A DNA stretch of 64,000 bases from Candidatus Altimarinota bacterium (GTDB taxonomy: Bacteria > Patescibacteriota > Gracilibacteria > BD1-5 > UBA2023), in contig JANJWP010000021.1 in NCBI GenBank assembly GCA_024709505.1, forward strand, positions 7,989-71,988, in the 5' to 3' direction. A model generated the notes under the pieces. That model was given only the letters and a program-made list of their open reading frames with translations. It was not told the DNA's origin and ran no database searches. Shown piece after piece: positions 28,188 to 47,192 of the stretch; the stretch's first letter is position 1, and every line of letters begins with the position of its first letter. Made by a program: the position numbers and the translations under genes.

Positions 28188-28263
28188 GCCACTTTAGCTC
28201 AGCTGGTAGAGCAACGGCCTTGTAATCCGTAGGTCGTCGGTTCGAATCCGACAAGTGGCTCCA
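28188..28263 (+). tRNA. trnT: tRNA-Thr (anticodon UGU), CCA encoded
   Basis: Hand-folded cloverleaf. Acceptor GCCACTT/AAGTGGC, D arm GCTC..GAGC, anticodon loop CTTGTAA, T arm GTCGG-TTCGAAT-CCGAC, 3' TCCA. One C-U mismatch closes the anticodon stem. Confidence 0.85.
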
Positions 28264-28281
28264 GCTATCGTTTTTGTTTTT

Positions 28282-28366
28282 GGGTCGGTTCCAGAGCGGT
28301 CAAATGGGGAGGACTGTAAATCCTTTGTCTACGACTTCGTAGGTTCGAATCCTACCCGGCCCACCA
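28282..28366 (+). tRNA. trnY: tRNA-Tyr (anticodon GUA), long variable arm, CCA encoded
   Basis: Acceptor GGGTCGG/CCGGCCC (one G-U pair), anticodon loop CTGTAAA, long variable arm, T loop GGTTCGAATCC, 3' ACCA. Confidence 0.85.
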
Positions 28367-28402
28367 TCTAAAAAAACCAACGACGATTAGCCGCTGCCGT
28401 CC

Positions 28403-28486
28403 GCCGGGATGGTGGAATGGTAGACACGACGGTCTTAGAAGCCGTTGCCTTCGGGCGTGAGGGTTCAAGTCCCTCTTCCGGCACCA
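28403..28486 (+). tRNA. trnL: tRNA-Leu (anticodon UAG), long variable arm, CCA encoded
   Basis: Acceptor GCCGGGA/TTCCGGC (one G-U pair), anticodon loop CTTAGAA, long variable arm, T loop GGTTCAAGTCC, 3' ACCA. Confidence 0.85.
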
Positions 28487-28593
28487 AGAAAATCCGGCTT
28501 CGGCCACCTTCAATCACAGTACGTATCGGGCGAATGCCCCTGCGGAGCGCGCACCGTATGAAGCGGGCGCACAATATTTCCCACTCCCTTCAT

Positions 28594-28809
28594 ATGAAGC
28601 AGAATATCCACCCGGCCTTCGACGAAGTCAAGGTCACCTGTTCTTGCGGAAACACCTTCACGACCCGAAGCACCCTCCGCGACGAAATCAAAGTTGAAAG
28701 CTGCAGCAAGTGCCACCCGTTCTACACTGGCGAAAAGCGCATCTTGAAGACCTCTTCGGTTGACAAGTTCTACGCTCGCCAACAGAAAACCGCTTCCATC
28801 AAAAAATAA
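28594..28809 (+). CDS. rpmE: 50S ribosomal protein bL31
   Basis: MKQNIHPAFDEVKVTCSCGNTFTTRST...ESCSKCHPFYTGEKR. 71 aa. The track ORF 28417..28809 over-extends across the tRNA-Leu gene. Confidence 0.9.
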   Translation: MKQNIHPAFDEVKVTCSCGNTFTTRSTLRDEIKVESCSKCHPFYTGEKRILKTSSVDKFYARQQKTASIKK

Positions 28810-28820
28810 GGTCGATACGA

Positions 28821-28854
28821 AAGAACCCCTTCCTTTTCGGAAGGGGTTCTTTTC
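28821..28854. terminator. Bidirectional terminator between rpmE and the pilin-like gene
   Basis: AAGAACCCCTTCC-ttttc-GGAAGGGGTTCTT followed by TTC, with an A-rich run on the other side. Confidence 0.65.
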
Positions 28855-28871: not shown

Positions 28872-29864
28872 CTAATCCCTTAGCAAAAAGAAATTGAAGA
28901 GCGAGTAGCTCACGACAATGAGCAGAAGTCCCGCGAAAATGTATTTGATTGTTCCTTTCGCCTTTTTCAACTTCTCGTCGTCGCCTCACGAAGTCAGCAC
29001 GAGCCACCCGGCATAAATGATAAGCAAAACCGTGACGATGCCCAAAAACCCATTGAGGTAGTTTACGATCGAGGTCATGATGCTCACGGCTCATCCGACG
29101 TTTGGATCTTCGAGTTTGCACACTCCGAAAATGAGCGTGTTCTCGCATCGGACGGTTCCGTAAATGCTCGTTACGAGGGCTTTGGGAATCTTGATGAGGA
29201 GAAATCCCGCAATGCCCACGACGATCGACTTTTTGGCGGATTTGGCTTTTTCCTCGTCGCCTCCGGACGAAACGAGCTTGAAAAACGCGAGGAAGGCGAT
29301 GGCGAGGAAGGCGAAGCTCGCAAGAACTTCCATGAGTGCCACGAACGGATATACGAGCCGGTCGAGAAACACGTCAGCCGTGCGTCCGGTAATGTTTTTA
29401 TCGTAAAGCGTCGAGACGAAAACGAAAGCGCTCTGCATCACCACGATGCCAATGGTCGTCGCGAAAATGGAAGACTTCCATTTCTTGGCGTCATCCTCTC
29501 CGCCCTTCGAAAACAAGAGCCGGAGAACCGAAATGACGAGATAGATGACCGCTATCGCAATGAAGAGGTTTTTTACGTCCCTCGCCACCATGATCACGCC
29601 ATTGAACGCGCCACGCTCACCGGTATTGGAGGCCGTGAAAAAATATCCGGTGAACGGTGAGGCGAACTGGTCGAGATATCCGTTTCGTCCAGCGGCACCG
29701 GATTTTGGAGTCGCCCGCGCATCAAGTTCGCTTGAAGACGAGGAAACCTGGATGATGTCCTCTAGGTCTATGGCCGAAGCGGTTGCCGGAAAAATGGAAA
29801 CGGCCGGAGCGGCAATCGCAAGGAATGCCATCAACTTCGACAGCGATTTGGACAAAAATGACAT
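28872..29864 (-). CDS. Secreted protein made of three fused T4SS-pilin-like (VirB2/TrbC-type, CPR T4SS_pilin-like) modules
   Basis: Track ORF 29091..29864 extended through TGA at 29093..29091 and 28988..28986 to TAG 28874..28872 (330 aa). Signal peptide: MSFLSKSLSKLMAFLAIAAPAVSIFPATASA. There are three copies of hydrophobic helix + S-x-G-G-D/E-D/E-x-K..K-x-I + hydrophobic helix: LLFSKGGEDDAKKWKSSIFATTIGIVVM, FKLVSSGGDEEKAKSAKKSIVVGIAGFLLI, LVLTS[UGA]GDDEKLKKAKGTIKYIFAGLLLIVV. Confidence 0.7.
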
Positions 29865-29940
29865 TTGGAAAACGCGAAAACGGGGCTACTTGCGAGAAAG
29901 TATAGCGAGAGTTGCGGGGATTTCCATCCTTTTCGAGCGG

Positions 29941-32868
29941 CTATCCCTGCATAATGCCGAGCCGAGCTTCGATTTCCATATCGACGTATTCCTTTTTTCG
30001 TCCGTACATTTTCCGGGAGTACTCCTTGATAATTTTCGCACGTTCGGGGTCTTTGTAGGTATTGTCCCAAATGGTCTTCATGTCGAACGGACGGGTCGTC
30101 GCGTTGTCGATGTTGAGCTTGCAGTAGGTCGTGAAATTGGCAATGCCGATAATGTCCTGTTGCGAAAGGAGCGGGGCGTATTCCTTCTCCAAGTATTCCG
30201 CGTCTTCCGCGCCGACCTTGAAACTCATGATGGTGCCCGCGTTGCCGAAGACCGCGTCCTTGATGGACGGCTTTCCGTCTTTCGACTTGTTTCCGCCGAT
30301 CTGCGCGATGAACTGGTGCGCCATGATGAGCGCCAAGTGGTATTTGCGGGCTTCCGAGAGGATTTCGCCGAAGGTATCGGTCGCAAAGTTCTGGAATTCG
30401 TCAACGTAGAGGAAGAAATCCTTGCGTTGGTCTTCGGGGGTATCGGCGCGGCTCATGGCCGCCATGTTGATTTTGGAAACGAAGATGAGGCCGAGAAGCT
30501 GGGCGTTGAGGTCGCCGATCATCCCTTTCGAAAGGTTGACCATAAGAACCTTCTGATCGTCCATGACCCGGCGGAGATTGAATGCCGATTTCGGCTGGCC
30601 GATGATGTTGCGGATGGTGGTGTTCGTAATGAACGGGCCGAACTTCGAGGAAAAGTACGGAATCATTTCCTGCTTTTCGCGATCGCCGGTGGAGGCGTAT
30701 TCATGGTCCCAGAAAGCCTTTACGACCGGGTTCTTGACCTTGGATACCTTGTACTTCATGAACGCGTCGTCAACGAAGAGGCGCGGCACGTCGATAAGGG
30801 TTCCGCCTTCGTCTTCGTCGTCCATGAGGGTGAGACAGCCGTTGCGGAAGTAGTGTTGGATGCGCGGGCCGAAAACTTCTTCGTTGAAGATCTTGATGAA
30901 GATGGAAGTCGCATCAAGTGCGGCGCGGTCTTTTTCGATGGCGCGCTGGGCCGGGTCGGTCGAGATGACTTCGAGCATGTTCAGTCCCATGGGACGCTCG
31001 TAATCGGCGGGATCGAAGACGATCATGTCCTTCGCCCGCTCTTTCGGCGTGAAACTGATGATGTCCTCGACCAAGTCTCCGTGCGGATCGATGACGCAGA
31101 GCCCGTCGCCGTTCCAAAGGTCCTGTCGGGCAAGGTAGCCGACGAACACGGACTTACCTCAACCGGATTTACCGATGATGTAGTGGTGGCGTCCGCGGTC
31201 TTTGCGCATGAAATAGATGGGCTTCTTCACGTTGCGGTATTCGTTCCACCCCATGAGTACCGCGTCGGTATAAAGCGGGAAGCCCGCAAGATGGCGCTGC
31301 TTCATTTCGGAGACGGGCATTTTTCCCGCGTCGGCGGGTTTTCCCTTGTTGTCGCCTTCGGTCGCAACCGGAACGACGGTTCCGTCAACCAAGAGGAAAT
31401 TCTTGTTCTCGTCGCGTTTCAAATTGAGGTTCTTATCCACCGCAAGAAGCGATCCGTCCTCGGTAAAAACGTTTCCGTGGGCGTCGCGCTTATAGTCGGA
31501 AAGCACGGTCGGATTCGAGGGGGTCTTGAGATTGTGCGGGGGCGCGAGCATCTTGTACTCGAGCCACTTGATGATGGGCGATCGGTTGTAGTTGATGTCC
31601 GGAAAATGATAGAGCGTCGAGAGTTCGTCCGTTGAAAAAGTGGACACTCCTTGAAGGAAACCCAAAAGACGGAAACGGAAGGCGAAATACCGGATCGGAA
31701 CGAAAAAGAACGCGAACAGGTCTTCGTATTGCGGATTGTCGAGCTTGTTGTTGTATTCGTCGGTAAAAATGCTCGTTCCCCCTATCGTGGTCTGCAAGGC
31801 GATTTCGGCGCTCTCGGGAGTATCAGATCCCACGATGACCCGGATTGACGCGAGGAATCCCGGTTGTCCGGCGGATTCGCCCATCGCCTTGTGCCCCTCT
31901 TGTTCGGCTTGGTTGAAAATTTTGTAGGAGTCCCCCGAAGACGCCCCCGGAGCCATGGAATCGGAGGTTCGTTCATTATTGACGAGCGTGTTGATGAGCC
32001 AGTAGATCGGAGCGAGTACCGATTGAATGGCTGAAAGCCAAAATCCGGCCTTCGCCCTTCCTTTGTACTCCCCCTTCGCCACGAGATTCGCAGCCTTTTT
32101 GGCCTTTTTATTCCACCACGAAGACCGGGGCTTCGCGATGATTTGAAGCACTGCCTTGTCGGTGTGCTTGAGGGTGCCGAAGTTATTGGTGAACGTCGAA
32201 AGCGGATCGTCCTCGAAGTACTTGAAGGTCTTAATCGGATACACGTCGTCGTTTACCTTGGAGATGCTCGCGGCACGAACGGTATATCCGGCAGGCTTGA
32301 GGTTCGGGTATTCGCTTGGACGGATGATCTTCACTTCGGCATCCGGATAGTTCGAAGTGACCTGTTGCGCGATGAAATTCGCCACGCCGGAATAGGTCAC
32401 GACGTAAAACGATATTTGTCCCTGATCGAAAACGAGTTCGAGCGAGGCTTTCATGTGGTCGAAAATCGTATCGAGCACCCAATCCTTGAAGGTGATGTCG
32501 CCGATTTTATGAATCGACTTGAAGAAGATGGACATGATTCCCACCTTTTCTTTGAAATCCTTTTTCGTTTCGCGTTCCTTGTCGAGCTTGGAATCAGCCC
32601 GCGGCAACGTTACGCGCATGTAAACGAGCCTTTTTGCGGCGTAGATTTCGTAGAGGATCCGAACGAGTTTGAGAAGAAAAAAAAGGAGGAGAACGAGCAA
32701 AAGCACGTTCCATACGACGGCGAAAAGATATTCGAGCATCTCCCAAAAGGAGCCTCATTCTTCGGCCGGAACGGTTTTGGAAGCCGTTCCCGAACGCTCG
32801 GTTCCGGCGATGGCGGCATGCGCGACGGGGAGAAAAAATCCCAGAAGCGACGCAAAGGTTTCAGACAT
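29941..32868 (-). CDS. VirD4/TraD-like type IV coupling-protein-family ATPase, paralogue 1 (975 aa)
   Basis: Joins 31159..32739 and 29941..31149 through TGA 31161..31159, which sits in the Walker A loop (IIGKSG[UGA]GKSV). It extends upstream through TGA 32757..32755 to ATG 32868, which has an AAAGGAGAGG Shine-Dalgarno. Features: N-terminal TM helix, VIDPHGDL, Walker B-like FFLYVDEFQNF, ARKYHLALIMAHQFIAQI. Confidence 0.8.
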
Positions 32869-33019
32869 ACCTCTCCTTTGGATTACGGAATCGGGGAAAT
32901 AGTACCACACTCTTGGCGTTCGGGCAAAAAAGGCGGCGCCATTCCCCCTTTACGAACGCCGGGTTTTCGGTATTATCGTTCCCGGTAGCGCGAAAATATT
33001 CTTTTTCCGCGCTTTTTTC

Positions 33020-34525
33020 ATGGTTAAAACCGTATTCTCCTCGTCGATTCGAGGCCTATTTTGACAGCTCGTCCACGTGGAAGTGGACGTTTCTCCGGGA
33101 CTGCCCTCGTTCTCAATCGTCGGACTCGGCGATACGGCGGTCCAAGAAAGCCGCGAACGGGTTCGGACCGCCATTCGAAATTCTGGATTTTCCTTTCCGC
33201 AAAAACGCGTCACGGTCAATTTGGCTCCGGCCGAAATTCGGAAGGCCTGACCGGGATTCGACCTTGCGATCGCCATCGGCATCATTGCCGAAGAATGCGG
33301 ACTGAAAGAAAGCGACCTGAAGGGGATAGCCGTTCTCGGCGAACTCGCGCTCGACGGGACGCTCCGGAACGTTGGCGGAATCGTCGCCCATGCGGCCTCT
33401 CTCGGAGAATATGAAACGTATGGCCTGCTCGCCTCCGAAAGCGACGCGCAAACAGCTTCATTTATTCCGAACGTCATCGCATACGGAGCGAAAACCCTTC
33501 GCGAAGCGGTCGAAGCCCTCCAAAAAAGAAGGGGCGGGAAGGCTGTTGCGAAAAAACGTTCCGAAATCCAGAGCGCCGTCCGGACGTCGGATTTTCCGGA
33601 TTTTTCGGATATCGCGGGACAGGAGCGGGCGAAACGCGCCCTTGAAATTGCCGCCGCGGGAGGACATAACGTGCTTCTTGAATGAGCCCCTTGATCGGGA
33701 AAAACCTTACTTTGCCGGGCATTTCAGGGGATTTTGCCGGAAGTTTCACCGCAAGAACTCATCACCTTAGCGAAAATCCGATCCGTTTCCGGATCATTTT
33801 CCGATCCGTTTTCGCTCGAACGCCCCTTCGTAAGCGTCCATTCCGGGGCGAGCGCGGCCAGCTTGCTTTGATGATGACCGCTCGCCAAGCCCGGAGAAAT
33901 CACCCTCGCACACCTTGGAACGCTTTTTTTGGACGAACTCCGGGAATTTCCACCCTACCTGCTCGACGCCTTGAGGCAACCCCTCGAAGAAGGAAAGGTT
34001 CGGGTTTCGCGGGCGCTCGCGAGCCATTCGTATCCGGCCAGGTTCCAGTTGCTCGCCGCAACGAACCCCTGTCCGTGCGGATACCTCTCCGACCGTGAAA
34101 AACCTTGCACATGCGCACCGGGATCGGTTGAGCGTTACCGAAACCGAATTTCCGGCCCCATTCTGGACCGAATCGACCTCTTCGTCGGCGTACCAAGACT
34201 TTCATCGATCGAAATTGGCAACCAAAAACGGGGGGATGCGTCGGCAAAAATACTTGAGCGCGTCGTTTCTGCCCGATCTATCCAATTCGAACGGTTTTGA
34301 ACGCGCGAAAAAACCAACGCCTCCCTTTTGGGAAAAGAACTCTCCGAAATGAGCATCTCTCCGGAAGCCGAAAAGTCAGCGCTCGAAGCGGTCGATCGCC
34401 TCGGACTCTCCGGTCGGGCATACGACCGGATTCGGAAGGTTTCCCGGACGATTGCCGATTTGGATGGTTCGAAAACCGTCGAAATCGCTCACATGGCCGA
34501 AGCCATGAGTTATCGTGAACGCTAA
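33020..34525 (+). CDS. comM: Mg-chelatase-like ATPase ComM/YifB
   Basis: 501 codons in one frame with 8 in-frame TGA (33062, 33248, 33683, 33692, 33869, 33872, 33875, 34298). Lon-like N-domain ([33 protein letters not shown][UGA][11 protein letters not shown]). Walker A VLLE[UGA]AP[UGA]SGKT. LL[UGA][UGA][UGA][28 protein letters not shown]. The track only shows 33929..34300 and 34328..34525. Confidence 0.9.
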
Positions 34526-34558
34526 AATTCGCATTCTTCGGCAACGCTCGGCGCGTCT

Positions 34559-34597
34559 AAAAAACGTCCGCCGGAAAAGCTTCCGGCGGACGTTTTT
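34559..34597. terminator. Bidirectional terminator between comM and the HTH gene
   Basis: AAAAAACGTCCGCCGGAA-aagc-TTCCGGCGGACGTTTTT. Confidence 0.7.
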
Positions 34598-34607
34598 GAA
34601 CGTTTCG

Positions 34608-36378: not shown

Positions 36379-36745
36379 GGTCCGGTGGGAAAACGCACGA
36401 CTTATACCGCAAAAGTCGCGAAAGTAAATCGGAGATTTCTTGACTTATTGGGCGTTCATGGTTACATATCGGAAGACAGAAACACGCTCCACAATGCGGA
36501 ATTCCCCCCTCGAACGCAATAGGGCATACGCCCTTCTTAAAACCGTAGGACACGCGGTCATTTCGGCGTTCTCAAGCCTCTTCCTCCTCTTGGCACCGCT
36601 CGTCGGAAAACCGAGAAAACCCCTTCCGGAAAACCGTTTCTTCGAAATTCTCGATTTCGTTTTCGTTTCCGGTCCGAGGCATTTTTGGAAACGTCCCACC
36701 GCGATATCGGCGGGACGGAGCCTTTCGACCTTTCTCCACTTCGTT

Positions 36746-37942
36746 TTGGAAAAAGAGCGGCGGTTCGTCGAAAAGAAGGACCCGAAAGCCTTCACGCTCG
36801 TCGAAGTGCTGGTCGCCATCACCGTATTGGCCATCGTTCTCGTTCTCGGACTTCAAGGACTCGGGCAAATCGCCGGATACCGAACCAACGTGAGCGACCG
36901 GGTAGATTTGTGACAGGACCTCTACTACAACGTCGAGCGCCTCGTTTCGATCGTAAAGGACGGCGGCGTCATAGACTACGAGGAATACTGGAACCGGTTC
37001 GCCATGGGCACCGGAACGAATGTCGGAAACCTTTCCTCCGCCAATATCGGCGGAGGATACGCCAACCTTACCGGATTCGGAAACTACGGAGCGGGAGGCA
37101 GCATCGCTCCGGGGGGCGCTTTCTGAGCCGGACAATATCTCTGTCTCAGCGGAAACGGAACGCCAATGGGGACGGGCGGATGTCTTTCGTCGTTCAATTC
37201 GGCAGGAGCCGACATGACGGGAATGCCCCAGCGGTACGGACAGTACGCCTTGCAATTTTTCGATGCCAATGCCAACGCCAACGGCGATTTGGGCGATGAA
37301 AACGGCGATGGCAGATCCACTGGTGACGACGATGACGAAGAGCTTGGCGCCGGACCTGCCGCGTTCGTCCCCGGAGAACCCCTTCGCGAACTCTATCTCA
37401 TCAAGAAGAATTCCGCGGTTCCCGAACGGCTCATCCTCCGGTGGGTCGTCGCCGCCGACCCTAACCGTCCATCCTGAGCGACTTGCGTCGGGAATGCTGA
37501 CGGCTCCGTTACCGGAAGCGGCTGCATCGGACGCGTCGAAATGCTTCGGCTCGTCGGACGCGATTATGGAATCGCGCATTCCGGATCGGTCGCGTCCTCC
37601 TGACGCTTCGACGGAAAAATCGACACGTGGGAATGCCGCGGCGATTTCCATTGCGCCGGAAACGAGAATACCCCCGTGTGATCGGGAAGCTCGTTCAATA
37701 TCGGAACGACCGAGTGGGTAAGCGTCTTTCCCGAAGACATTAACGTCAAGAGCGTTTCGTTTTCGCCATATCCGCACAAGGATTACCGGCTCTCCTGGAA
37801 GGAAAACGATCCTTCGATCCGCATCGCCCCGTATGTCCGAATCGACATGACGCTCGGATTTTCTTGGATCCGAAGGAAAAAATTCAATGCCGGATCCGAT
37901 CCGCAAGCCCATGTCACGACTTCCGTCTCCCTTTCCGATTAG
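36746..37942 (+). CDS. Large type IV pilin-like protein (about 398 aa)
   Basis: One frame from 36440 to TAG 37940..37942 with in-frame TGA at 36911, 37124, 37475, 37601 and 37679. Prepilin motif KKDPKA/FTLVEVLVAITVLAIVLVLG. The nearest in-frame start is TTG 36746 (uncertain). There is an acidic loop DANANANGDLGDENGDGRSTGDDDDEE and several Cys. Confidence 0.6.
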
Positions 37943-37945
37943 CCC

Positions 37946-38866
37946 ATGTCCCGCATTTCCACCGCAATACGATCGAATCGGGAAGGTTTTGCCATCTTCC
38001 TCGCGATGCTCCTGACGGTCCTCATCGTGCTCATGGGAGTCTATCTCATAGACAAGCTCGTTCCGGCGTCGAAAGATGTCAAAGGGGTCGAACACGGAAA
38101 CGTCGCCTATTACAAAGCTGCGAGCGCCGTCGAACTGGCACTTTCGGAGCTTTCGGGCAACAATCCGGGAACCCAGACCGGCAGCAGCGCGGGAAACCTT
38201 TCAGGTTCGGGATATTCGCTTTCCACCGTAGGAAGCGGAACGGTCGTTCCCCGGCCGGGATTCGGCAACAGCGAATATGACGACGATTGGAACGTCATCG
38301 CCATAGGGAGACCGGTGCAAATAAAATTGCCAGATGGATACCGTCCTTCCGATCTCCGGTTGGAGTTCCGCGTTCCCGACCTCAATCGCAACGGACAATC
38401 CGGGGAACAAGGCGGCGGAGAACCATCCGAAGCCCTTTCGGGAACGGTCGCGCAAATCGTGAACTGGAGCATTTCCACCACGGCTGACACTCTCGTTTCC
38501 GCAAGCTCCCAAGTCCTTACCGCAGACCAGATAAACCAGGCGGCACCCCTCTCGCTCTGATCGCTTACGGGCTCGGTTCTCACGAGCACGGGCGCTTCGA
38601 GCGTAACCGATTTCGAGACCGCAAACTGCGGCTCCGGAGCACGTTGCACGGTCAAGCTTTCCCTCGTGCACTCACTCGAGACGCGGGGCGGACAGGCGAT
38701 GCCGTATCTGGAATACCGGCTTTCCTCAGCCGTAGCGACGCCCATCCCCCAACAGTGGACGCGGGTCGTTGCCGAAGGGTATTCCCGAGGATTCAAGCAG
38801 ACGAAAATCCGCAACGTCGAACAAAACACCGTCGGCGAAGCCCTGGATTTCACCGTGTTCCAATAA
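37946..38866 (+). CDS. Minor-pilin/pseudopilin-like protein (306 aa)
   Basis: Joins 37946..38560 and 38666..38866 through TGA 38558..38560. The N-terminus SNREGFAIFLAMLLTVLIVLMGVYL is a PilX/GspK-like hydrophobic N-terminus without Glu5. It starts 4 nt after the preceding pilin gene. Confidence 0.5.
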
Positions 38867-39933: not shown

Positions 39934-40956
39934 CTATGGATTTCTCGGACTTTGAGCATTCGAAGCCTTGTAGATCACCTGCCCGAGGGGATTCATGATC
40001 TTTTTCAAGGAATCGCGCAAAAGCGAATAGTCTTCCAAGATGAAGAGCATGACGACGTGCGATCCGTAGGTGCGCTCAAATTCGTTATAGGCAATCATGG
40101 CCTGCGGAAAAACTTCCCGAGTGTGCCGGATTTCGGAATCAATCGAAGAAACCATGCTCGCCGAGCTGGCCAAGAGCTCTTCCGAAGAACCGCTTTTCGC
40201 AGCCTTGGAAGCATCTTCTGACACCGTTTCCCCTTTCGATTTTTTCCGGGCCTCCTCAGCCTCGATGAATTTCGAAAGCCGGTTTTGGGCATTCGCCTTA
40301 AGGTATTGGAGGTAATGTCGATAATTGCAGTATTCGTACGTGGTTTGATTCAGGAGGTCCTTTTTCATGAAAACGTTGGCCTTCCCTTCGGTGGAAGTTC
40401 GGTTGGCGCAGTTTCTCCGGGAAAGTTCCTGTTTCAAGAGTTTGGTTTGTTCTTCGATCTTTTTCACCGTATTTCCTCCGTCGGCTTTTTCGGCGCGGAC
40501 CGTCTTTAAAAGCTGTTCGTGCGTGCGAATCTTAAAATTGATTTGGGCACAAGCAAAAATGCCGTTCATCCGTTCTTTGTAGGTTTCGCTCGCAAGTTTG
40601 GCGTCGCGACCGAAATCAAACGGACTTCCTGCTCCGTTCGACGCGAGAATTTCTCCAATTCCGGAAACGTCACCCCCAACCCCTTCGACGCCCTTTCGAT
40701 ACTGCTTGTCGGCGGTTGCGGAACCGATTTCCGGATAGGAAAATTCTTTGATGCGGATGATGGAACCGTTATTCGGATTCCATGCCCTCTCGCAAACCTG
40801 TTTGACGCTTTTTTTATAAGCCTCCTCATATGACCATACGACCCCTTCTTCCGCATGGGCCGAAAACGTTGCGAGAGCAAGGGAAGATGCCGTGAAAAAT
40901 CCGGCAGCCATGCCGAACGTTACGATGCGTTTGACGATTGTAGACATTTTCGACAT
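39934..40956 (-). CDS. Secreted helical hypothetical protein (340 aa)
   Basis: Intact ORF. Signal peptide or anchor: IVTFGMAAGFFTASSLALATFSAHA. Mostly helical and Lys/Glu-rich, with four Cys. It starts 2 nt after the stop of VirD4-like paralogue 2. Confidence 0.6.
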   Translation of the reverse strand: MSKMSTIVKRIVTFGMAAGFFTASSLALATFSAHAEEGVVWSYEEAYKKSVKQVCERAWNPNNGSIIRIKEFSYPEIGSATADKQYRKGVEGVGGDVSGIGEILASNGAGSPFDFGRDAKLASETYKERMNGIFACAQINFKIRTHEQLLKTVRAEKADGGNTVKKIEEQTKLLKQELSRRNCANRTSTEGKANVFMKKDLLNQTTYEYCNYRHYLQYLKANAQNRLSKFIEAEEARKKSKGETVSEDASKAAKSGSSEELLASSASMVSSIDSEIRHTREVFPQAMIAYNEFERTYGSHVVMLFILEDYSLLRDSLKKIMNPLGQVIYKASNAQSPRNP

Positions 40957-40958
40957 AT

Positions 40959-43367
40959 TTAGACAGCACCGATTCGGTAGATGATTTCCTTTTCGACGAA
41001 CTCCCTTTCGCGACCGTACTTGAGACGCGAAAGCTCTTTGTAGGCGGAGGCGAGCTTTTTGTTTCCCTGTTTGAGATAGGGATTATCCGGGGTAATGCTG
41101 AAGGCCGGGGTCGGCTGTCCGTCAACCATGAGCTTCATCACCCCTTTGAACTTATCCATGTTAATGAGGTCACGCTCCGAAAAATTCGGCGCGAACTGTT
41201 TGGCAAGGAACTCCGCATCTTCTGGTCAGACCTTGTAGGAAAGCAGGGTTCCCACGTTGCCGAAGATGGCGTCCTTCAGATTCACGTCGGATTTGGTAAG
41301 CGCATCGGACTTATGGAGTTGTCCAAGATACTGGTGGGCCACGACGAGTCCGAGGCGATACTTACGGGCTTCCGAAAGAATCGATTCGATCGAATCGGTC
41401 ACGTAATTTTGAAATTCGTCGATATAGAGGAAAAAATCCTGTCGTTCGCTTTTGTCGATGGACTGCCGACGCATCGCGGAAACCTGCACCTTCGAGACCA
41501 TCATCATGCCGAGAAGCTTTGAGTTGAAGTCTCAAAGAATTCCTTTGGAAAGGTTGATGAAAAGGATTTTCTTATTCTGCATGACGTCGAACATGTCAAA
41601 CGAACTTTTCGTTTGACCAATGATGTTGCGCATCATCGCGTTAGTAATGAAGCCGCCGAATTTCGCCTGGAAATACGGGATGATTTCGGCTTTTTCTCGG
41701 TCCCCCATCTTGGCATAGGTATAATCCCACCAAGCCTTTACGATGGGATCTTTGAGCGTTCTTCGGCGTTCCTTTTGAAATTCGTCGTCCGTAAAAAGGC
41801 GGACGATGTCGGTGAGTGCGGAACCCGCGGGATAGTCCATGAGGGTAAGCACGCCGTTTCGGAAATAGTCCTGAATGCGCGGACCGAAGATTTCGTTTCC
41901 AAACAGCTTGATCATCATGTTCATCGCGTCCTGCGCGACCATCTGCTTTTCGTCGGGAGTGCTTGCTTCGAGCAAATTCAGCCCCATCGGACGCGAAAGG
42001 TCGGCAGGATCGAAATAGATAACGTCGTCGGCACGTTCGCGAGGAACGAACGGCATGAGGTCGCTCGCGAGGTCGCCGTGCGGATCCATGACGCAAATGC
42101 CGTTTCCGAGAGCGATGTCCTGTCTCGCAAGAACTTGGATAACGCTCGATTTACCCGTACCGGTCTGACCGATGACGTAGAAATGACGGAATCGGTCTTC
42201 GGTTTTGATCCGAATTTCCCGTTTTACGCCACGATAGTTGTTGGAGCCGATGAGAATGCCTTCGGTGGGGATGTTCACCGGGGCTTTTACGATCTTAAAA
42301 TTCTGCCAGCGAATTTCCGGAGAAGTGTCGTATTTGGAATGGGGAAAATGAAACAGCGAAGCGATTTCCTCAATGGAGAGAATCTGTTTTTTCGCAAACC
42401 ATTTGCGGGGAAAGGAGCGGAAGATGTACGAACGGAAAAACGCGTCGGCATCGTGCGCCCTATGGGCCGAAAAACCGTTGTAGGAAGGTCCGGAGAACTG
42501 CGAAAACGCCGCGGCGATATTGTCGAGTTCGGCTTTGGCCAAAACTTTGTCACGAGCCGTAACCACTACTCTAACCACCGTTTCAAATCCGGTCTTTTTG
42601 GCTTTTTCACGAACGAGTTCCTTGCTTTCGGCTGGATGTTCTTTTTCTTGGCCCTCCTTATGGTCGGAAGATTCGAAAAAAACCGATAGGACGGCCGAAA
42701 ATGCCCGAGTAAGAAAATTGCCGTGGTGCGAGTTTATGCGGTCAGCTTTTTTAAACGCTTTGCGCTGCCAATCGTCCGGAACCGAGCGTACAAGAATCTG
42801 GATGGCCGCCGATTCGTCTTGGGCAAGTTTTCCGAGCGCTCCGGTAATGGTGTTGATGGGGTCGGATTCGAGTTTCTGGTGAGTTCTGATGGGAAGGAAT
42901 GGGTGTTCGTGAAGAACCATCTCCGCCCCAGCCGCAACCTTCCGATCGCGAAAAACGTTCGGTTCGGAAACCTCCTCAACTACTGCATCGGGATAAAAAC
43001 CCGTAATCTGTTTTTCAATGAGAATTCGGGCCTTTCTTGGAACCGCTACGAAAAAGAATATTTCGCCGTCTTGCGCGAGGTATTCGAATGACAACGGATC
43101 GGCTCCGAAAAACGTTTCGCGGAATCATCCCTCGGAAAGTCCCTTGAGCGAGGCGAGGAATTGCTCCATGATGCCCGTCCATTCTTTAAAATCCCGCACG
43201 GTTTCTTTGCGATCATCAAGGTCGCTATCCTTTCTTGGAAGGGTTACTCGGAGAAACGCGGTTTCGAGACTCCGACGGAACGACACCTTCGTTTTCCACC
43301 AAAAGGCCGCGTAAGCGGTGAAAACAATGGAGGCGACGGCTATGAAGATCGCGGTTTCTTGAGACAT
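40959..43367 (-). CDS. VirD4/TraD-like type IV coupling-protein-family ATPase, paralogue 2 (802 aa)
   Basis: Joins 43125..43406 (trimmed to MSQETAIF, ATG 43367), 41532..43094, 41226..41507 and 40959..41159 in one frame. TGA at 43127..43125, 41534..41532 and 41228..41226. Walker A VIGQTGTGKSS, VMDPHGDL, FFLYIDEFQNY, ARKYRLGLVVAHQYLGQL. It is colinear with paralogue 1 along its whole length. Confidence 0.8.
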
Positions 43368-43575
43368 CGAGAGTGGATGGTTCGAACTCCCCCCATTGTA
43401 GCCCAATAGTGCGGAAATTCAAAATGTCGGAAGGAGCTTTATCCGGATTCGCAATTTCTGAATTCAACCGGAAAAACCCTGCTTGGATAGGATGACCGGC
43501 TTTGGCGGAGCGGCTTCAAACTCTTGACGGACGCCGTCCAAAAAAGGAGTCGTAGAATGGAATTGTCGAAACACG

Positions 43576-43646: not shown

Positions 43647-46600
43647 TTAGTCGGAGATGATTGCGCCGTCGAGCTTGGTGGTGGTAAGGCGGAGAGCCGT
43701 AACGGAAGCGCCGGAATCGTCGTCAGAGTAGACGATAGCGGAGTCGTTGAGGTTCTCGAGGGATACCTGGACGGATTCGTTACCAGCAACGCCGGAGTCG
43801 AGTCCGATGGAACCCTTGATAACGAAGTAGACGGTCTGACCAGCCGAGATTTCAGCGTCGGTTCCGAGACCGGCAAGAGAGCCGGTAGCGTAGCCGCCGG
43901 AAACGGCGAGGGAGACTGCGCCAGTTCCGCCACCGATCTTTTCGACGGTGAGGGTCGTAGCGCCGGTATTGACGGTCTGAGCGATCTTGAGCTTGAGGTC
44001 GTCAATAACGGTCTTGAGAACTTCGGTGGTAGCTTGCTTGGTATTGGACGTGCTATCTGCGGTGATTGCGAGGATAGCGAGGTTGTTCGTACCAGAGGTA
44101 AGCTTGGTAGCGCGGGAAACGCCGCCGAACGAATCGACGAAGGAAACCGCGGATACGCGTACCGAGGAAACGGCAAACGCCTTGGAGTAGGTGGATCCGT
44201 TCGTAGCAGTAACGGCCTTCTTGGAGGACACGCCTTCTGCATCGGTGACGGTTACGAGTGCTTCGAGGATGGTACCGGTACCTACCTGGTCCTTACCAAT
44301 CTTGTTGGTGATGGCCTTGACGTAGATGGTTTCCGAACCTTCGGCAACTGCGTAGTTGACGTCTTCGAATACGACGGTGGAGGAAGTAACGGTCTTGGAA
44401 GCGATGAGAGAACCATCGGCCTTGTAGAGGGCAACGGAACCTACAGCGTTCGTAACGTTAGAACCAGAGAGGGCGACGGTGATGTCCTTTGCGGTAACGG
44501 CTTCGTTGGTAGCGGTGAGCTTGACTGCACCGACTTCGGAAGAGGTGGTACCAGCGAGAACGGACTTTTCCTTGTCTGCCTTCGCGTCAGCGTTATCCAT
44601 AGCGACGGTGAGAGTACCTACGCCAGTAACGGTGATGGTGCGATCGGAAACGGCGGTTCCGGAGACGGAAACGTCGTCGTTGTCGTAGTCTTCGAGGTCG
44701 AGACCGTTGGATGCAGCGACACGGAGTTGGAGTCCGCTTCCGCTGAGGGTCTGGTCGTCAACGATGGAAACGGTAACGACGAACTTCTGGGTCTGGTTCT
44801 TCGCGATGTCAACCATGATGGAATCGAAGTTTGCCGTGGTGGAAATCGACGATCCTCCTACCTGCTTAACGAGGTTCGCGTCGGAGACGGAATCCTTGTA
44901 AAGCTTGATAGCGGAGATGGAAGTGCTGTTGAAGTTGAGCGAACCCGCTTCCTTCGCAACGCGAACTTCGCGGAGCTTGAGAGCGGAAGCGTCGTTAGCC
45001 TTGATTTCAAAAGCGAGAGCTTCTACGTCCTTGGAACCAACGACCGCGGTCTTGGAAGCCGAGAGCGGGAGTTTGGTAAGGGTAGCGGAAGCGGAAACAG
45101 CTTCGAGAGCCTTCATCGAAAGGGCGGACGGAGTAATGTCCTTAACCTTGTTGTCATCTTCGGTTTCCTGGATGTAGAGACCAGCGGTGGAAGTGGTGCT
45201 GGTATCTCCACCAAGATTGGAGAGCTTCACGTTGAGTTTCGGAGTACCTACGAAGGTAACGTCCTTGGAGTCAGCGCGGATTACGAAGGTCTTGGAGGTT
45301 CCAAGAGCGATCGAGAGGGAGCGGTCGTAGAAGGTCTCGGAAGTGCTGTTACCAGCGGAAGTGAGATCATAAACGGTACCCATCGATTCGTCGTAGAGCT
45401 CTACGTTTTCGAGAAGTTCGGAAACACCGGAACCGGTGGTCGAGTTTTCGATAACGATGTTGGCGGCTGCGATTTCGAGGGCTTTACCCTTGGTGTTGGT
45501 AACGATGATCTTACCAAGGACGATGTCCTTCTTATCCTTGAGGAACTGGGTAGCTTCTGCATCCATATAGGAAACGGCGATTTCGCCGGCCTTAACGGTG
45601 AGGCCCGAGTTCGAGAAGGAAGTACCAGCGGTGCCATTGACGGCAACGCCGATATTGTAGAGGGAACCTACGGCGGTAACGTCGAGCTTGTTGTCGAGAA
45701 CGAGATCGATAGTCTTAGCCGGACCTCCGATAATGTCTGCGCGAACGGAGAACTTGACGTTTCCGCCGTCCTTGATGGATACCGGGGTAGCCATGTTGAA
45801 GGTGACGTACTTGTCAACGGTCTTGGCGGCCGAAGCTACCTTGACGCCGTCTGCATAGAGTTCGAAGTTAGCGAGGTCGGTCTTTTCATCGACGGTGCCT
45901 TCTTCCTTAAGGGTGACGGACGAAACGAGGATGGATTCCTTGTTGGTGGAATCTTCGGAAAGCTTGAACTTTGCGATTTCCACGTTTTTGTCGCCGAGGG
46001 TAACCTGGGCGGGGGATCCATCAGCTTCAACCTTAACCTGACCTGCGGTAACGGCTGCGACCTTGTGGGTAGCGCCAACTACCGGGAAGGTAGCGGAGAT
46101 GGTTTCAGCGGAAGACGCGACTGCTTCAGCGTTGGTGATCTGAAGAGCGAATTCCTGGCTTGCCGCCGCACCGGTTGCAATGGAAGCAACGAGCGTAACG
46201 GTCTGGGTGGTTCCAGCCTTAACGACCATTCCGTTGGTGAGAACGAGGGTGGTCTGCTTGTCGGAGTTGTTGAACGGGTTGGTCTTCACCTTGGAAGCGC
46301 GTCCGTCAGCAGCGAAGACAGCGAGGTCGGAGATGAGGGTTCCGTCACCGAGACCTACCTGCTTAACGACGAGGGAGGAAACGGTGATGTCGGTCGAGCC
46401 TGCGGTGAGGTCGAACGAAGCCACGGAAACACCAGCGGCTCCCTTCGGAAGATTTGCGGCAGCTGCAGTCTTCGCGGAGAGGAATACGCCGAGGGTACCA
46501 GCCTTGGTAACAACGGAAACCGGGGTGTCGGTGGTGGTGTCGGTGGTGGTTCCGGTTCCGAAGAGATCACCGAGGTCGATGTCGTCTTCTTCTTCCATAA

Positions 46601-47192
46601 CACCTGCGACGCCAGCGGCTACCTTGAACGCTTCACCACGGGTGGCGGTTGCGTTCGGGCGGAAGTTGGTCGCGGTTGCGATGTATCCTTCTGCGGCAGC
46701 GGCGTTGATGTAACCTGCGAGGTCACCGAGCGACGAATCGACATCGGCGAAACCAGCGGAGGTTTCGGTGGTTTCGACGCCCTTGGCAGCCATGAGCATC
46801 TTGACCATTTCCGCGCGGGTAACGAGATCGAGGGGACGGAACTTGGCGTTTGCCTTCGAAACGATACCGGCGTTAGCAGCGGTTTCGATGTAGGAAGCGA
46901 GATCACCGAGCTTAGCGGTGGTAACGTCCGAGTACATCGAATCGGTTGCTTCTTCTACTTCTGCGCCATTGAGCTTAACGGCGATTTTTGCCATTTCCGC
47001 GCGGGTGATGTTGTCACCGAGACGGTATCCGGCTTCAGTAGTCTGGGAGTTGATGATCCCAGCTGCTGCGAGTGCGTCTGCGTAAGCGGCGAATTCGGAT
47101 GCTGCGGAAGCGGTAAGGGTGGACCCTACTGCGGCTGCGGCAACGGCGAACGCGCTAACGGTCGACGTAACTTTCTTAAAAAGGCTAGCCAT
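43647..47192 (-). CDS. S-layer protein: three N-terminal SLH domains plus about seven beta-sandwich-like repeats (1181 aa)
   Basis: Intact ORF without a single TGA. Signal peptide: MASLFKKVTSTVSAFAVAAAAVGSTLTASA. SLH-type repeats: FAAYADALAAAGIIN...ITRAEMAKIAVKL; LGDLASYIETAANAGIV...VTRAEMVKMLMAA; LGDLAGYINAAAAEGYI...ATRGEAFKVAAG. A Thr-rich linker follows, then repeated modules of ~110-130 aa rich in V/T/S/A (e.g. VASFDLTAGSTDITVSSLVVKQ, EIAKFKLSEDSTNKESILVSSVTLKE). Confidence 0.85.
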   Translation of the reverse strand: MASLFKKVTSTVSAFAVAAAAVGSTLTASAASEFAAYADALAAAGIINSQTTEAGYRLGDNITRAEMAKIAVKLNGAEVEEATDSMYSDVTTAKLGDLASYIETAANAGIVSKANAKFRPLDLVTRAEMVKMLMAAKGVETTETSAGFADVDSSLGDLAGYINAAAAEGYIATATNFRPNATATRGEAFKVAAGVAGVMEEEDDIDLGDLFGTGTTTDTTTDTPVSVVTKAGTLGVFLSAKTAAAANLPKGAAGVSVASFDLTAGSTDITVSSLVVKQVGLGDGTLISDLAVFAADGRASKVKTNPFNNSDKQTTLVLTNGMVVKAGTTQTVTLVASIATGAAASQEFALQITNAEAVASSAETISATFPVVGATHKVAAVTAGQVKVEADGSPAQVTLGDKNVEIAKFKLSEDSTNKESILVSSVTLKEEGTVDEKTDLANFELYADGVKVASAAKTVDKYVTFNMATPVSIKDGGNVKFSVRADIIGGPAKTIDLVLDNKLDVTAVGSLYNIGVAVNGTAGTSFSNSGLTVKAGEIAVSYMDAEATQFLKDKKDIVLGKIIVTNTKGKALEIAAANIVIENSTTGSGVSELLENVELYDESMGTVYDLTSAGNSTSETFYDRSLSIALGTSKTFVIRADSKDVTFVGTPKLNVKLSNLGGDTSTTSTAGLYIQETEDDNKVKDITPSALSMKALEAVSASATLTKLPLSASKTAVVGSKDVEALAFEIKANDASALKLREVRVAKEAGSLNFNSTSISAIKLYKDSVSDANLVKQVGGSSISTTANFDSIMVDIAKNQTQKFVVTVSIVDDQTLSGSGLQLRVAASNGLDLEDYDNDDVSVSGTAVSDRTITVTGVGTLTVAMDNADAKADKEKSVLAGTTSSEVGAVKLTATNEAVTAKDITVALSGSNVTNAVGSVALYKADGSLIASKTVTSSTVVFEDVNYAVAEGSETIYVKAITNKIGKDQVGTGTILEALVTVTDAEGVSSKKAVTATNGSTYSKAFAVSSVRVSAVSFVDSFGGVSRATKLTSGTNNLAILAITADSTSNTKQATTEVLKTVIDDLKLKIAQTVNTGATTLTVEKIGGGTGAVSLAVSGGYATGSLAGLGTDAEISAGQTVYFVIKGSIGLDSGVAGNESVQVSLENLNDSAIVYSDDDSGASVTALRLTTTKLDGAIISD

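What the first reader, a model, noticed from the sequence alone, without database searches (positions are those of the whole stretch)
28872..29864. Covalently triplicated T4SS-pilin-like protein immediately downstream of the coupling ATPase
The 330-aa secreted protein contains three tandem copies of the unit hydrophobic helix - S-x-G-G-D/E-D/E-x-K-x-K-A/S-K-x-I - hydrophobic helix. This unit is the hallmark of the small (~100 aa) VirB2/TrbC-like pilins described for CPR bacteria (T4SS_pilin family). In the third copy one glycine of the motif's G-G pair is a UGA codon (LVLTS[UGA]GDDEKLKKAKGTIKY). I am not aware of a described head-to-tail pilin trimer. It could be a pre-assembled pilus or channel building block, or a polyprotein that is cleaved.
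Basis: partly seen in the sequence, partly recalled or inferred. Interest (0 to 1): 0.65.

Follow-up and report, generated by a model that had tools for sequence, protein, structure and literature searches.

The report
Three conjugative-type pilins fused in one protein
This gene from an uncultured, UGA-recoded Gracilibacteria genome encodes three anciently duplicated VirB2-like pilin hairpins joined in one six-helix membrane protein next to a VirD4-like ATPase, and the papers I could search describe only separate pilin genes, not such fusions.

Summary
Window 28872-29864 (minus strand) is one 330-codon ORF once its two in-frame UGA codons are read as glycine. In the closest relative those codons are GGG and GGA.

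**What it encodes**
- A signal peptide and a variable N-terminal region, followed by three helix / charged-loop / helix units.
- Each unit matches Pfam T4SS_pilin on its own. The units match each other in profile-profile comparison (97.5-98.8% probability).

**Not an artefact**
- About 90 homologue clusters and about 35 species genomes carry the same three-unit ORF, some with no UGA in it.
- dN/dS is 0.06.
- The triplication is ancient: same-position units are 49-57% identical across species, against 18-24% between units within one protein.

**Context**
- A VirD4-like ATPase gene abuts the pilin gene in 33 of 38 loci.
- Fused proteins of 4-8 units exist elsewhere in candidate phyla radiation (CPR) bacteria, inside arrays of single-unit pilin genes.

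**Literature and function**
- The papers I could search describe only arrays of separate pilin genes.
- The most likely function is a covalently tethered heterotrimeric building block of the type IV secretion (T4SS) pilus or conduit.
- A membrane-resident, VirB6-like channel role is the main rival.
- Cleavage into three pilins is unlikely, because no cleavage motif is conserved.

This is a new variant of a known kind, of moderate interest.

The parts
28872..29864 (-). Triple-pilin gene: 330 codons plus a UAG stop, read with UGA as Gly.
   Evidence: Translation. Pfam T4SS_pilin 55.6 bits in 3 stretches. NCBIfam NF045849 53.7 bits, above its cut-off of 40. Ninety-nine homologue clusters. dN/dS 0.06 against L074.
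29772..29864 (-). Signal peptide, aa 1-31 (MSFLSKSLSKLMAFLAIAAPAVSIFPATASA | IDLED).
   Evidence: Read from the sequence: basic n-region, hydrophobic core, A-x-A end. The same layout appears in homologues. Heuristic only; no dedicated predictor was available.
29613..29771 (-). Variable, acidic N-terminal region of the mature protein (aa 32-84), predicted to lie outside the cell.
   Evidence: pLDDT is below 50 for aa 24-60. Length is 39-67 aa and mean net charge -3.1 across 63 homologues.
29391..29612 (-). Pilin unit 1 (aa 85-158), loop SKGGEDDAKKWK.
   Evidence: T4SS_pilin 26.0 bits, E = 1e-5, when scanned alone. Helices 83-118 and 123-154. hhalign to units 2 and 3.
29151..29378 (-). Pilin unit 2 (aa 163-238), loop SSGGDEEKAKSAKK.
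   Evidence: T4SS_pilin 22.2 bits, E = 1.5e-4, when scanned alone. Helices 160-199 and 204-235.
29106..29150 (-). Conserved linker between units 2 and 3 (aa 239-253). It carries the invariant C240 and the 98%-conserved C249 flanking a predicted beta-hairpin, and it follows the invariant Y235 and 95%-conserved G236.
   Evidence: Alignment A1. Strands 238-240 and 249-251 in the model. The disulfide is inferred.
28875..29105 (-). Pilin unit 3 (aa 254-330), loop TS[UGA]GDDEKLKKAKG.
   Evidence: T4SS_pilin 31.2 bits, E = 2.3e-7. TrbC/VirB2 21.6 bits, E = 2.6e-4, below that family's cut-off. Helices 256-291 and 296-327.
29091..29093 (-). In-frame UGA, codon 258, read as Gly.
   Evidence: The orthologous codon in L074 is GGG. 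Family-wide, UGA aligns with Gly 50% of the time against a 7% background.
28986..28988 (-). In-frame UGA, codon 293: the first G of the G-G pair in loop 3.
   Evidence: The orthologous codon in L074 is GGA. The alignment column holds G x18, A x11 and UGA x4 in other genomes.
29865..29940 (-). 76-nt spacer between the ATPase stop and the pilin start, holding a weak sigma-70-like site (29899-29926). The spacer is conserved in L074 even though the gene upstream of it differs there.
   Evidence: The promoter call is only a consensus match.
28823..28849 (.). GC-rich hairpin between the convergent pilin and rpmE genes; a likely bidirectional terminator.
   Evidence: Fold energy -32.9 kcal/mol, z = -6.2, with 0 of 200 shuffles as stable.
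29941..32910 (-). ATPase-A: a 989-aa VirD4/TrwB-like (T4CP-like) ATPase with one N-terminal transmembrane helix and a long N-terminal domain. The start codon is uncertain.
   Evidence: T4SS-DNA_transf 43.8 bits (cut-off 20.1), TrwB_AAD_bind and TraG-D_C. TrwB in the PDB at E = 2e-4. Weak VirD4/TraD NCBIfam hits. Adjacent to the pilin gene in 16 loci.
40959..43574 (-). ATPase-B: an 871-aa paralogue of ATPase-A. In 17 related loci its orthologue lies directly downstream of the triple-pilin gene.
39934..40956 (-). 340-aa signal-peptide protein of unknown family that always follows ATPase-B. Probably part of the same apparatus.
   Evidence: No Pfam or NCBIfam hit. Conserved position after ATPase-B in about 14 loci.

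Best explanation
The gene encodes one Sec-exported protein built from three VirB2-like (T4SS_pilin) helical hairpins.

**Shown**
- The three units arose by an ancient triplication and have since diverged.
- Their order has stayed fixed across class Gracilibacteria.

**Inferred topology**
- The signal peptide is cut off.
- Each hairpin inserts with its conserved G-G-acidic-K-K-x-K loop in the cytoplasm and its ends outside.
- All three units therefore have the orientation of a single pilin.
- They are joined by a short first outside linker and a disulfide-stapled second one.

**Inferred mechanism**
- Together with the adjacent VirD4-like ATPases, the protein supplies the pilin-type polymer or conduit of the Patescibacteria type IV secretion apparatus as a covalently tethered heterotrimer.
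- The fusion fixes the 1:1:1 stoichiometry and neighbour order of three paralogous pilins.
- Other CPR bacteria encode such paralogues as separate tandem genes.
For: **Identity of the units**
- Three independent T4SS_pilin matches.
- A match to the Mycoplasma ICE 'pilin-like conjugal transfer protein' NF045849 above its cut-off.
- Unit-to-unit homology.

**One intact ORF under selection**
- 91 of 99 homologue clusters and all 38 orthologous loci have three units in one ORF. These include ORFs with no UGA at all and genomes that are not recoded.
- UGA reads as Gly, and dN/dS is 0.06.

**Ancient, position-specific units**
- Same-position units are 49-57% identical across species, against 18-24% within a protein.
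- The nearest neighbour belongs to the same unit class in 189 of 189 cases.

**Topology**
- Six long helices.
- Loops of fixed length with net charge 0 to +1; outside segments with net charge -0.5 to -3.1.

**Link to T4SS genes**
- A VirD4-like ATPase gene abuts the pilin gene in 33 of 38 loci.

**Fusion and array are interchangeable**
- A 6-unit protein and a 4-unit protein, each with a single signal peptide, sit inside arrays of 1- and 2-unit pilin genes.
- By the 'Rosetta stone' argument, this suggests that array paralogues co-assemble.

**Literature**
- CPR pilin arrays are essential in Ca. Southlakia, and a pilus-like structure has been proposed (PMC12857230 and PMC12102498).
Against: - No filament has been seen. 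Pilus formation by any T4SS_pilin protein has not been shown experimentally.
- Pulling a six-helix, roughly 30-kDa unit out of the membrane is harder than pulling out a two-helix pilin.
- The link to solved VirB2/TraA pilins is weak. TrbC scores 21.6 bits, below its cut-off. A PDB profile search and Foldseek found nothing.
- The same genomes also keep single-unit pilin genes (L016 with L066; L003 with L052). The fusion therefore does not simply replace an array.
- In the closest relative's short contig, the ATPase is not upstream.
- The model's pTM of 0.56 does not fix how the units pack against each other.
Confidence: 0.55

Rival explanations
1. Membrane-resident channel or platform. The six-helix protein never leaves the membrane. 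It acts as the polytopic translocon partner of the VirD4-like ATPases, a functional stand-in for VirB6, built from pilin hairpins.
For: - VirB6 homologues are reported as absent in Gracilibacteria (PMC12102498).
- The protein has six transmembrane helices, as polytopic T4SS subunits do.
- It is tightly linked to T4CP-like ATPases rather than to VirB4.
- The cytoplasmic loops are highly conserved and of fixed length, as expected if they contact an ATPase.
- Monoderm MPF-FATA systems, to which the CPR T4SS is related, have no pilus.
Against: - No match to VirB6/TrbL or PrgH profiles.
- The units are homologous to pilins, not to VirB6.
- Fusions of 4-8 units and giant proteins with one N-terminal pilin unit fit a modular polymer better than a channel of defined size.
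- The variable, acidic N-terminal region resembles an exposed surface epitope.
Confidence: 0.27
2. Polyprotein. The precursor is cut in the two outside linkers to release three separate pilins.
For: - Each unit's second helix has the in-to-out orientation of a signal peptide. Signal-peptidase-like cleavage is therefore topologically possible (inference).
- VirB2/TrbC pilins are known to be processed at both ends (established knowledge).
Against: - No A-x-A-type site is conserved in either linker: 4 of 63 sequences for linker 1 and 0 of 63 for linker 2.
- In the model the non-helical gap between units 1 and 2 is only about 5 residues, aa 155-159.
- Linker 2 is a conserved structural element, with invariant Y235 and C240 and 98%-conserved C249.
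- The fixed unit order and the single signal peptide have been kept across the whole class.
Confidence: 0.1
3. Artefact. The feature is really three separate genes collapsed by assembly, or genes separated by UGA stops that were wrongly read through, or a chance resemblance of a generic membrane protein.
For: One UGA (codon 258) lies in the linker just before unit 3.
Against: - The other UGA lies inside unit 3.
- Both codons are GGG/GGA in L074.
- Many orthologues have no UGA in the ORF (L001, L004, L006, L037, L042).
- The window as a whole uses UGA as a sense codon.
- Independent assemblies from many samples agree.
- Per-unit E-values range from 1e-5 to 2e-7.
Confidence: 0.01

Closest known systems
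Single-unit T4SS_pilin (PF18895) VirB2-like pilins of Patescibacteria, encoded in arrays of 2-11 separate genes (for example the essential six-gene array of Ca. Southlakia epibionticum)
   Same: The same unit: signal peptide, hydrophobic helix, G-G-acidic-K-rich loop, hydrophobic helix. The same phylum. Several divergent paralogues are used together.
   Different: - Three units form one polypeptide with a single signal peptide.
- The unit order is fixed and the triplication ancient.
- There is a conserved Cys-Cys linker.
- The gene is coupled to VirD4-like ATPase genes rather than lying in an array near virB4.
VirB2 / TrbC / TraA conjugative pilins (Pfam TrbC, PF04956) of Gram-negative T4SSs
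   Same: A two-helix hairpin with a charged loop and an N-terminal leader. Unit 3 gives a weak profile match (E = 2.6e-4). The proposed role as the polymerising subunit of a T4SS is the same.
   Different: - The score is below the family cut-off.
- No solved relative was found.
- The host is monoderm.
- The protein is a covalent trimer.
- There is no evidence of cyclisation or of a pilus.
Mbov_0395 / MMCAP2_0565 family pilin-like conjugal transfer protein of Mycoplasma ICEs (NCBIfam NF045849)
   Same: The protein scores 53.7 bits against this 80-position model, above its cut-off of 40. This fits the reported kinship of the CPR T4SS with the MPF-FATA class.
   Different: The model describes a single-unit protein on a mobile element. 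Here there are three units in a chromosomal, housekeeping context (rpmE, tRNAs, rlmH).
VirB6 / TrbL / PrgH polytopic inner-membrane T4SS subunits
   Same: A multi-helix membrane protein encoded beside T4SS ATPases. This is a possible functional analogy.
   Different: No sequence match. Its origin is different: repeated pilin hairpins.

Membership tests
Pfam T4SS_pilin (PF18895) | Whole-protein score at or above the gathering cut-off (26.6 bits). | tested here: met
   55.6 bits, E = 5.6e-15, three stretches.
Pfam T4SS_pilin (PF18895) | Each repeat unit qualifies on its own. | tested here: inconclusive
   Unit 3 scores 31.2 bits and passes. Unit 1 scores 26.0 and unit 2 scores 22.2, just below the cut-off but with E = 1e-5 and 1.5e-4. 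hhalign links all three units.
Pfam T4SS_pilin (PF18895) | Leader peptide followed by a helix / charged-loop / helix hairpin. | tested here: met
   Signal-peptide-like N-terminus and six hydrophobic helices in three hairpins.
Pfam T4SS_pilin (PF18895) | A small protein of one unit (about 100-150 aa). | tested here: not met
   330 aa with three units. Single-unit genes in other CPR loci are 115-180 aa. This is why I call it a variant.
Pfam T4SS_pilin (PF18895) | Encoded with other T4SS genes. | tested here: met
   A VirD4-like ATPase gene lies 76 nt upstream, and such a gene abuts the pilin gene in 33 of 38 loci. No VirB4 is present in the window.
TrbC/VirB2 pilins (PF04956) | Profile score at or above the cut-off (27.9 bits). 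| tested here: not met
   Only unit 3 matches, at 21.6 bits, E = 2.6e-4.
TrbC/VirB2 pilins (PF04956) | Polymerises into an extracellular pilus; processed or cyclised. | not testable with these tools
   Needs microscopy and mass spectrometry.
NCBIfam NF045849 (Mbov_0395 pilin-like conjugal transfer protein) | Score at or above the curated cut-off (40 bits). | tested here: met
   53.7 bits, summed over two stretches. The equivalog name does not fit the three-unit architecture or the chromosomal setting.
VirB6/TrbL | Profile match to VirB6/TrbL or PrgH. | tested here: not met
   No such hit in Pfam or NCBIfam up to E = 10 and E = 0.01 respectively.
VirD4/TraG type IV coupling protein (for the upstream gene) | Match to T4SS-DNA_transf or TrwB above the cut-off, with a Walker A ATPase core. 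| tested here: met
   PF02534 at 43.8 bits (cut-off 20.1). TrwB (1e9r) at E = 2e-4. GKSGGGKS motif present. NCBIfam equivalog cut-offs are not reached. The gene is T4CP-like, in the sense of the 5,713 'T4CP homologues' counted in PMC12102498.

The most novel reading that the evidence does not exclude
Fused 'poly-pilins' of 3 to 8 VirB2-like units in one chain would show that the puzzling multi-gene pilin arrays of Patescibacteria do not encode alternative, antigenically variant pilins. They would instead encode subunits that co-assemble in a fixed order into one heteropolymeric T4SS tube. On this reading the Gracilibacteria triple pilin is a natural, covalently pre-ordered three-protomer segment of that tube, driven by VirD4-like ATPases.
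Probability: 0.35. Interest if true: 0.75.

Novelty: new variant of a known kind. Interest (0 to 1): 0.55.

Why it matters
[quoted passage not shown] It is also unusual among monoderm systems in carrying VirB2-like pilins. What those pilins build, and why there are so many paralogues, is an open question (PMC12857230, PMC12102498).

- **Evidence for co-assembly.** A conserved covalent trimer, and the 4-8-unit fusions found inside pilin arrays, suggest that different pilin paralogues sit side by side in one assembly.
- **A practical target.** The fusion offers a single gene with a defined neighbour order. It could be used for structure prediction, co-evolution analysis, heterologous expression and cryo-EM.
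- **Annotation.** Such ORFs are often truncated or mistranslated in public data, because UGA is read as a stop or as Trp.

Tried and rejected
- **Longest-ORF gene calling.** It was misled by long shadow ORFs in this 54% GC, UGA-recoded DNA; for example, it preferred 29545-32988 on the plus strand. I replaced it with a codon-position GC criterion.
- **Structure prediction of the window protein itself.** I used the 92%-identical P0001 instead.
- **Foldseek of the whole model against the PDB.** Best E = 0.059, all hits unrelated helical bundles. Not informative.
- **PDB sequence search with a unit profile.** Only designed helical proteins, E of 0.11 or worse. No solved relative.
- **Pfam on four other large window proteins and Rfam on the window.** Nothing relevant: no families, and only three tRNAs.
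- **Search for a VirB4-like gene in the window.** None found. It is near the pilin gene only in L001, L008 and L009.
- **Supplement search of the Gracilibacteria metaproteome paper.** I looked for evidence that the protein is expressed or intact. Only a generic 'major pilin subunit' entry turned up, so this is inconclusive.
- **Readings considered and rejected.** Three genes separated by UGA stops; assembly collapse; chance similarity of a generic transmembrane protein (see the rival explanations).

Full report
**1. What is in the sequence**

The feature is a minus-strand ORF from the ATG at 29864 to the UAG at 28872-28874. In the standard code it is broken by two TGA codons: codon 258 at 29091-29093 and codon 293 at 28986-28988.

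The whole window uses TGA as a sense codon.
- Long ORFs with coding-type codon-position GC (GC3 well above GC2) contain one to nine TGAs each.
- These ORFs end only in TAA or TAG.

Three results identify the amino acid as glycine.
- In 38 orthologous genes, 217 in-frame TGAs align with Gly in 50% of cases, against a 7% background. Trp is not among the eight commonest residues at those columns.
- In the closest relative found (L074: 84% nucleotide and 92% protein identity), the two window TGAs are GGG and GGA.
- Homologues are named Candidatus Gracilibacteria, a lineage known to use code 25 (PMC11452946).

The product is therefore 330 aa.

**2. The repeat is real**

- Pfam T4SS_pilin (PF18895) matches at 55.6 bits in three stretches.
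- Cut out and scanned alone, the units score 26.0, 22.2 and 31.2 bits, with E = 1e-5, 1.5e-4 and 2.3e-7. Unit 3 also touches TrbC/VirB2, at 21.6 bits, below that family's cut-off.
- NCBIfam's 'Mbov_0395 family pilin-like conjugal transfer protein' (Mycoplasma ICEs) matches at 53.7 bits, above its cut-off of 40.
- Unit against unit, Smith-Waterman z-scores are 6.2-9.7.
- Profile-profile probabilities are 97.5-98.8%, with E from 8.5e-12 to 1.1e-16.

Anatomy:

| Residues | Element |
|---|---|
| 1-31 | Signal peptide, ending ...ATASA, cut before IDLED |
| 32-84 | Variable, acidic segment |
| 85-158 | Unit 1 |
| 159-162 | Short link |
| 163-238 | Unit 2 |
| 239-253 | Linker with invariant C240 and 98%-conserved C249 around a predicted beta-hairpin |
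| 254-330 | Unit 3 |

- The AF2 model was built on the 92%-identical P0001 with 62 sequences. It has pLDDT 72.8 and pTM 0.56.
- The model shows six helices of 32-40 residues.
- The three loops have fixed lengths (12, 14 and 14 residues) and net charge 0 to +1.
- The segments predicted to lie outside have net negative charge.
- All three hairpins can therefore sit in the membrane the way a single pilin does, with ends out and loop in. The topology is inferred.

**3. It is a conserved gene, not an artefact**

- A search of 5.8 billion proteins returned 99 clusters at 23-92% identity, almost all 305-345 aa.
- With a unit HMM of my own, 91 clusters have three units and one has four. The seven with two units are truncated fragments.
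- In species-representative genomes, about 35 genomes each carry a three-unit ORF. They are labelled Gracilibacteria, 'Peribacteria' or Patescibacteria.
- Several of these ORFs have no TGA at all (L001, L004, L006). Two genomes that are not recoded have them as well (L037, L042).
- Against L074, dS is 0.80 and dN is 0.05, giving dN/dS of 0.06.
- Same-position units from different species are 49-57% identical. Units within one protein are 18-24% identical. Each of the 189 units has a same-position unit as its nearest neighbour.

The triplication therefore predates the family, and each position has been conserved separately.

In 1.84 billion 50%-identity representatives, the three-unit profile finds 141 proteins at E of 1e-30 or better, 1,836 at 1e-10 or better, and 28,913 at 1e-3 or better.

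**4. Surroundings**

- **ATPase-A.** Seventy-six nucleotides upstream, on the same strand, ends a 989-aa protein with T4SS-DNA_transf (43.8 bits; cut-off 20.1), TrwB_AAD_bind and TraG-D_C matches. It also hits TrwB in the PDB. This is the kind of gene counted as a T4CP/VirD4 homologue in Patescibacteria, at about two per genome and mostly far from virB4 (PMC12102498).
- **ATPase-B.** A paralogue at 40959-43574 is followed by a 340-aa secreted protein of unknown family at 39934-40956.
- **Adjacency across loci.** A T4CP-like ATPase gene abuts the pilin gene in 33 of 38 loci.
  - In 16 loci, ATPase-A lies upstream, as in the window.
  - In 17 loci, ATPase-B and the 340-aa gene lie directly downstream, sometimes with a third ATPase upstream.
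- **An exception.** In the short contig L074, similarity to the window stops exactly at the ATPase stop codon. A Gly-rich protein gene lies upstream there instead.
- **Downstream.** A strong hairpin at 28823-28849 (-32.9 kcal/mol, z = -6.2) separates the gene from the convergent rpmE.
- **Neighbourhood.** The rest is chromosomal housekeeping: three tRNAs, rlmH, a sortase, a sigma-region-4 protein, type IV (N-methyl) pilin-like genes and an SLH-domain protein.
- **What is absent.** The 64-kb window holds no other pilin unit and no VirB4-like gene.

**5. A wider phenomenon**

- Some lineages have two adjacent triple-pilin genes plus a single-unit gene (L024-L026, L032, L033).
- L037 and L042 have two triple-pilin genes followed by a protein of 1,500-1,600 aa whose N-terminus is a signal peptide plus one pilin unit.
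- Among the best 145 representatives, there are proteins with four units (5 proteins), five (3), six (5), seven (2) and eight (1: P0172, 820 aa).
- P0177 has six units, one signal peptide and no internal stop in the standard code. It lies inside an array of genes with 1, 2, 1, [6] and 1 units (L072).
- P0095 has four units and lies in an array of 2, 2, 1, [4] and 1 units (L073).
- Other CPR lineages show the arrays of 4-10 single-unit genes already described.
- Gracilibacteria genomes with a triple pilin also keep single-unit genes elsewhere (L016 with L066; L003 with L052). The fusion is therefore an addition to them, not a simple replacement.

**6. How it probably works**

Shown:
- The protein is a pilin-family membrane protein with three diverged units.
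- It is under strong constraint.
- It is genetically coupled to VirD4-like ATPases.

Inferred:
- After signal-peptide removal, it inserts as three parallel hairpins.
- It serves as a tethered heterotrimer in the pilin-type polymer or conduit of the CPR T4SS. The fusion fixes stoichiometry and neighbour order.
- Fused and separate units occur together in arrays. By the Rosetta-stone argument, this suggests that the array paralogues co-assemble.
- From established knowledge of F- and T-pili, the subunits are parallel, their termini face outward and the loop faces the lumen. Short outside linkers between neighbouring protomers are geometrically plausible there. I could not test this.

I put this reading at 0.55.

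Rivals:
- **Membrane-resident, VirB6-like translocon (0.27).** This is the main rival. VirB6 is reported as absent in Gracilibacteria, the loops are very conserved, and monoderm T4SSs lack pili.
- **Cleavage into three pilins (0.10).** This is unlikely. No A-x-A site is conserved in the linkers (4 of 63 and 0 of 63 sequences). The helices of units 1 and 2 are separated by only about five non-helical residues in the model. Linker 2 is a conserved structural element.
- **Artefact.** This is excluded by the evidence in section 3.

**7. Comparison and novelty**

The protein belongs to Pfam T4SS_pilin by score, but it fails that family's 'small, one-unit' character. It is not demonstrably a TrbC/VirB2 member, because the score is below the cut-off and no solved relative was found.

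Full-text searches for PF18895/T4SS_pilin, for VirB2 with Gracilibacteria, and for fused or tandem pilins found two relevant papers: a 2025 survey and a 2025 review. Both describe arrays of separate pilin genes. The survey explicitly looked for other fusions (VirB3-VirB4). Neither mentions fused pilins. Only open-access papers and preprints were searched, so an earlier mention elsewhere cannot be ruled out.

The proteins themselves are already in public databases as 'pilin' or 'hypothetical protein'.

Verdict: a new variant of a known kind, with interest 0.55.

Noticed in passing
window 1-64000: The whole window reads UGA as a sense codon (Gly, code 25) at about 54% GC. Most long genes hold 1-9 in-frame TGAs and stop only at TAA or TAG. 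Standard-code ORF lists split nearly every gene, and long shadow ORFs appear on the opposite strand.
   Followed up: yes
window 43647-47192 (-): A 1,181-aa SLH-domain (S-layer-type) protein gene with no TGA codon at all, unlike its neighbours. This may reflect avoidance of UGA in a highly expressed gene.
   Followed up: no
window 36440-37942 (+) and 37946-38866 (+): Two type IV (prepilin N-methylation motif) pilin-like genes lie about 7 kb from the T4SS-type triple pilin. The same association (N_methyl gene, Sigma70_r4 gene, ATPase, triple pilin) recurs in L001.
   Followed up: partly
window 32950-34600: About 1.6 kb between ATPase-A and the Sigma70_r4/HARE-HTH gene has no ORF with convincing coding statistics and no Rfam match. 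Its content is unexplained.
   Followed up: no
L037 6824-11675; L038 5757-11022; L042 1631-6206; L046 5859-11487: Giant proteins of 1,500-1,900 aa whose N-terminus is a signal peptide plus a single T4SS_pilin unit, followed by a very long extracellular region. In L037 and L042 they lie directly after two triple-pilin genes. They could be pilin-anchored adhesins or tip proteins.
   Followed up: partly
P0172, P0177, P0185, P0196, P0205, P0212, P0218, P0224, P0228; L072 1777-3435; L073 1547-2692: Fused pilins with 4-8 units in one chain. In P0177 the units are nearly identical in sets of three, which points to recent tandem expansion. This contrasts with the ancient, diverged triplication in Gracilibacteria.
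   Followed up: partly
L024, L025, L026, L032, L033 (about 0.9 kb directly downstream of the orthologous triple-pilin gene): A second, much more divergent triple-pilin paralogue, usually followed by a single-unit pilin gene.
   Followed up: no
L074 1-1458 versus window 29941 onward: In the closest relative's 3-kb contig, similarity to the window ends exactly at the ATPase-A stop codon. A Gly-rich secreted-protein gene lies upstream there. This is either a real rearrangement or a chimeric short-read contig.
   Followed up: partly
public homologues, e.g. P0046-P0082: Many database copies carry W where the family has G (for example ...SAWDEEK..., ...WFLM...), or end abruptly at the G-G motif (P0049, P0088, P0092). 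These are signs that UGA was translated as Trp (code 4) or as a stop by the gene callers.
   Followed up: partly
window 28188-28486 (+) and 28417-28809 (+): A tRNA-Thr, tRNA-Tyr and tRNA-Leu cluster sits directly before rpmE (ribosomal protein L31). The longest rpmE ORF overlaps tRNA-Leu, so the true start must lie further downstream.
   Followed up: no
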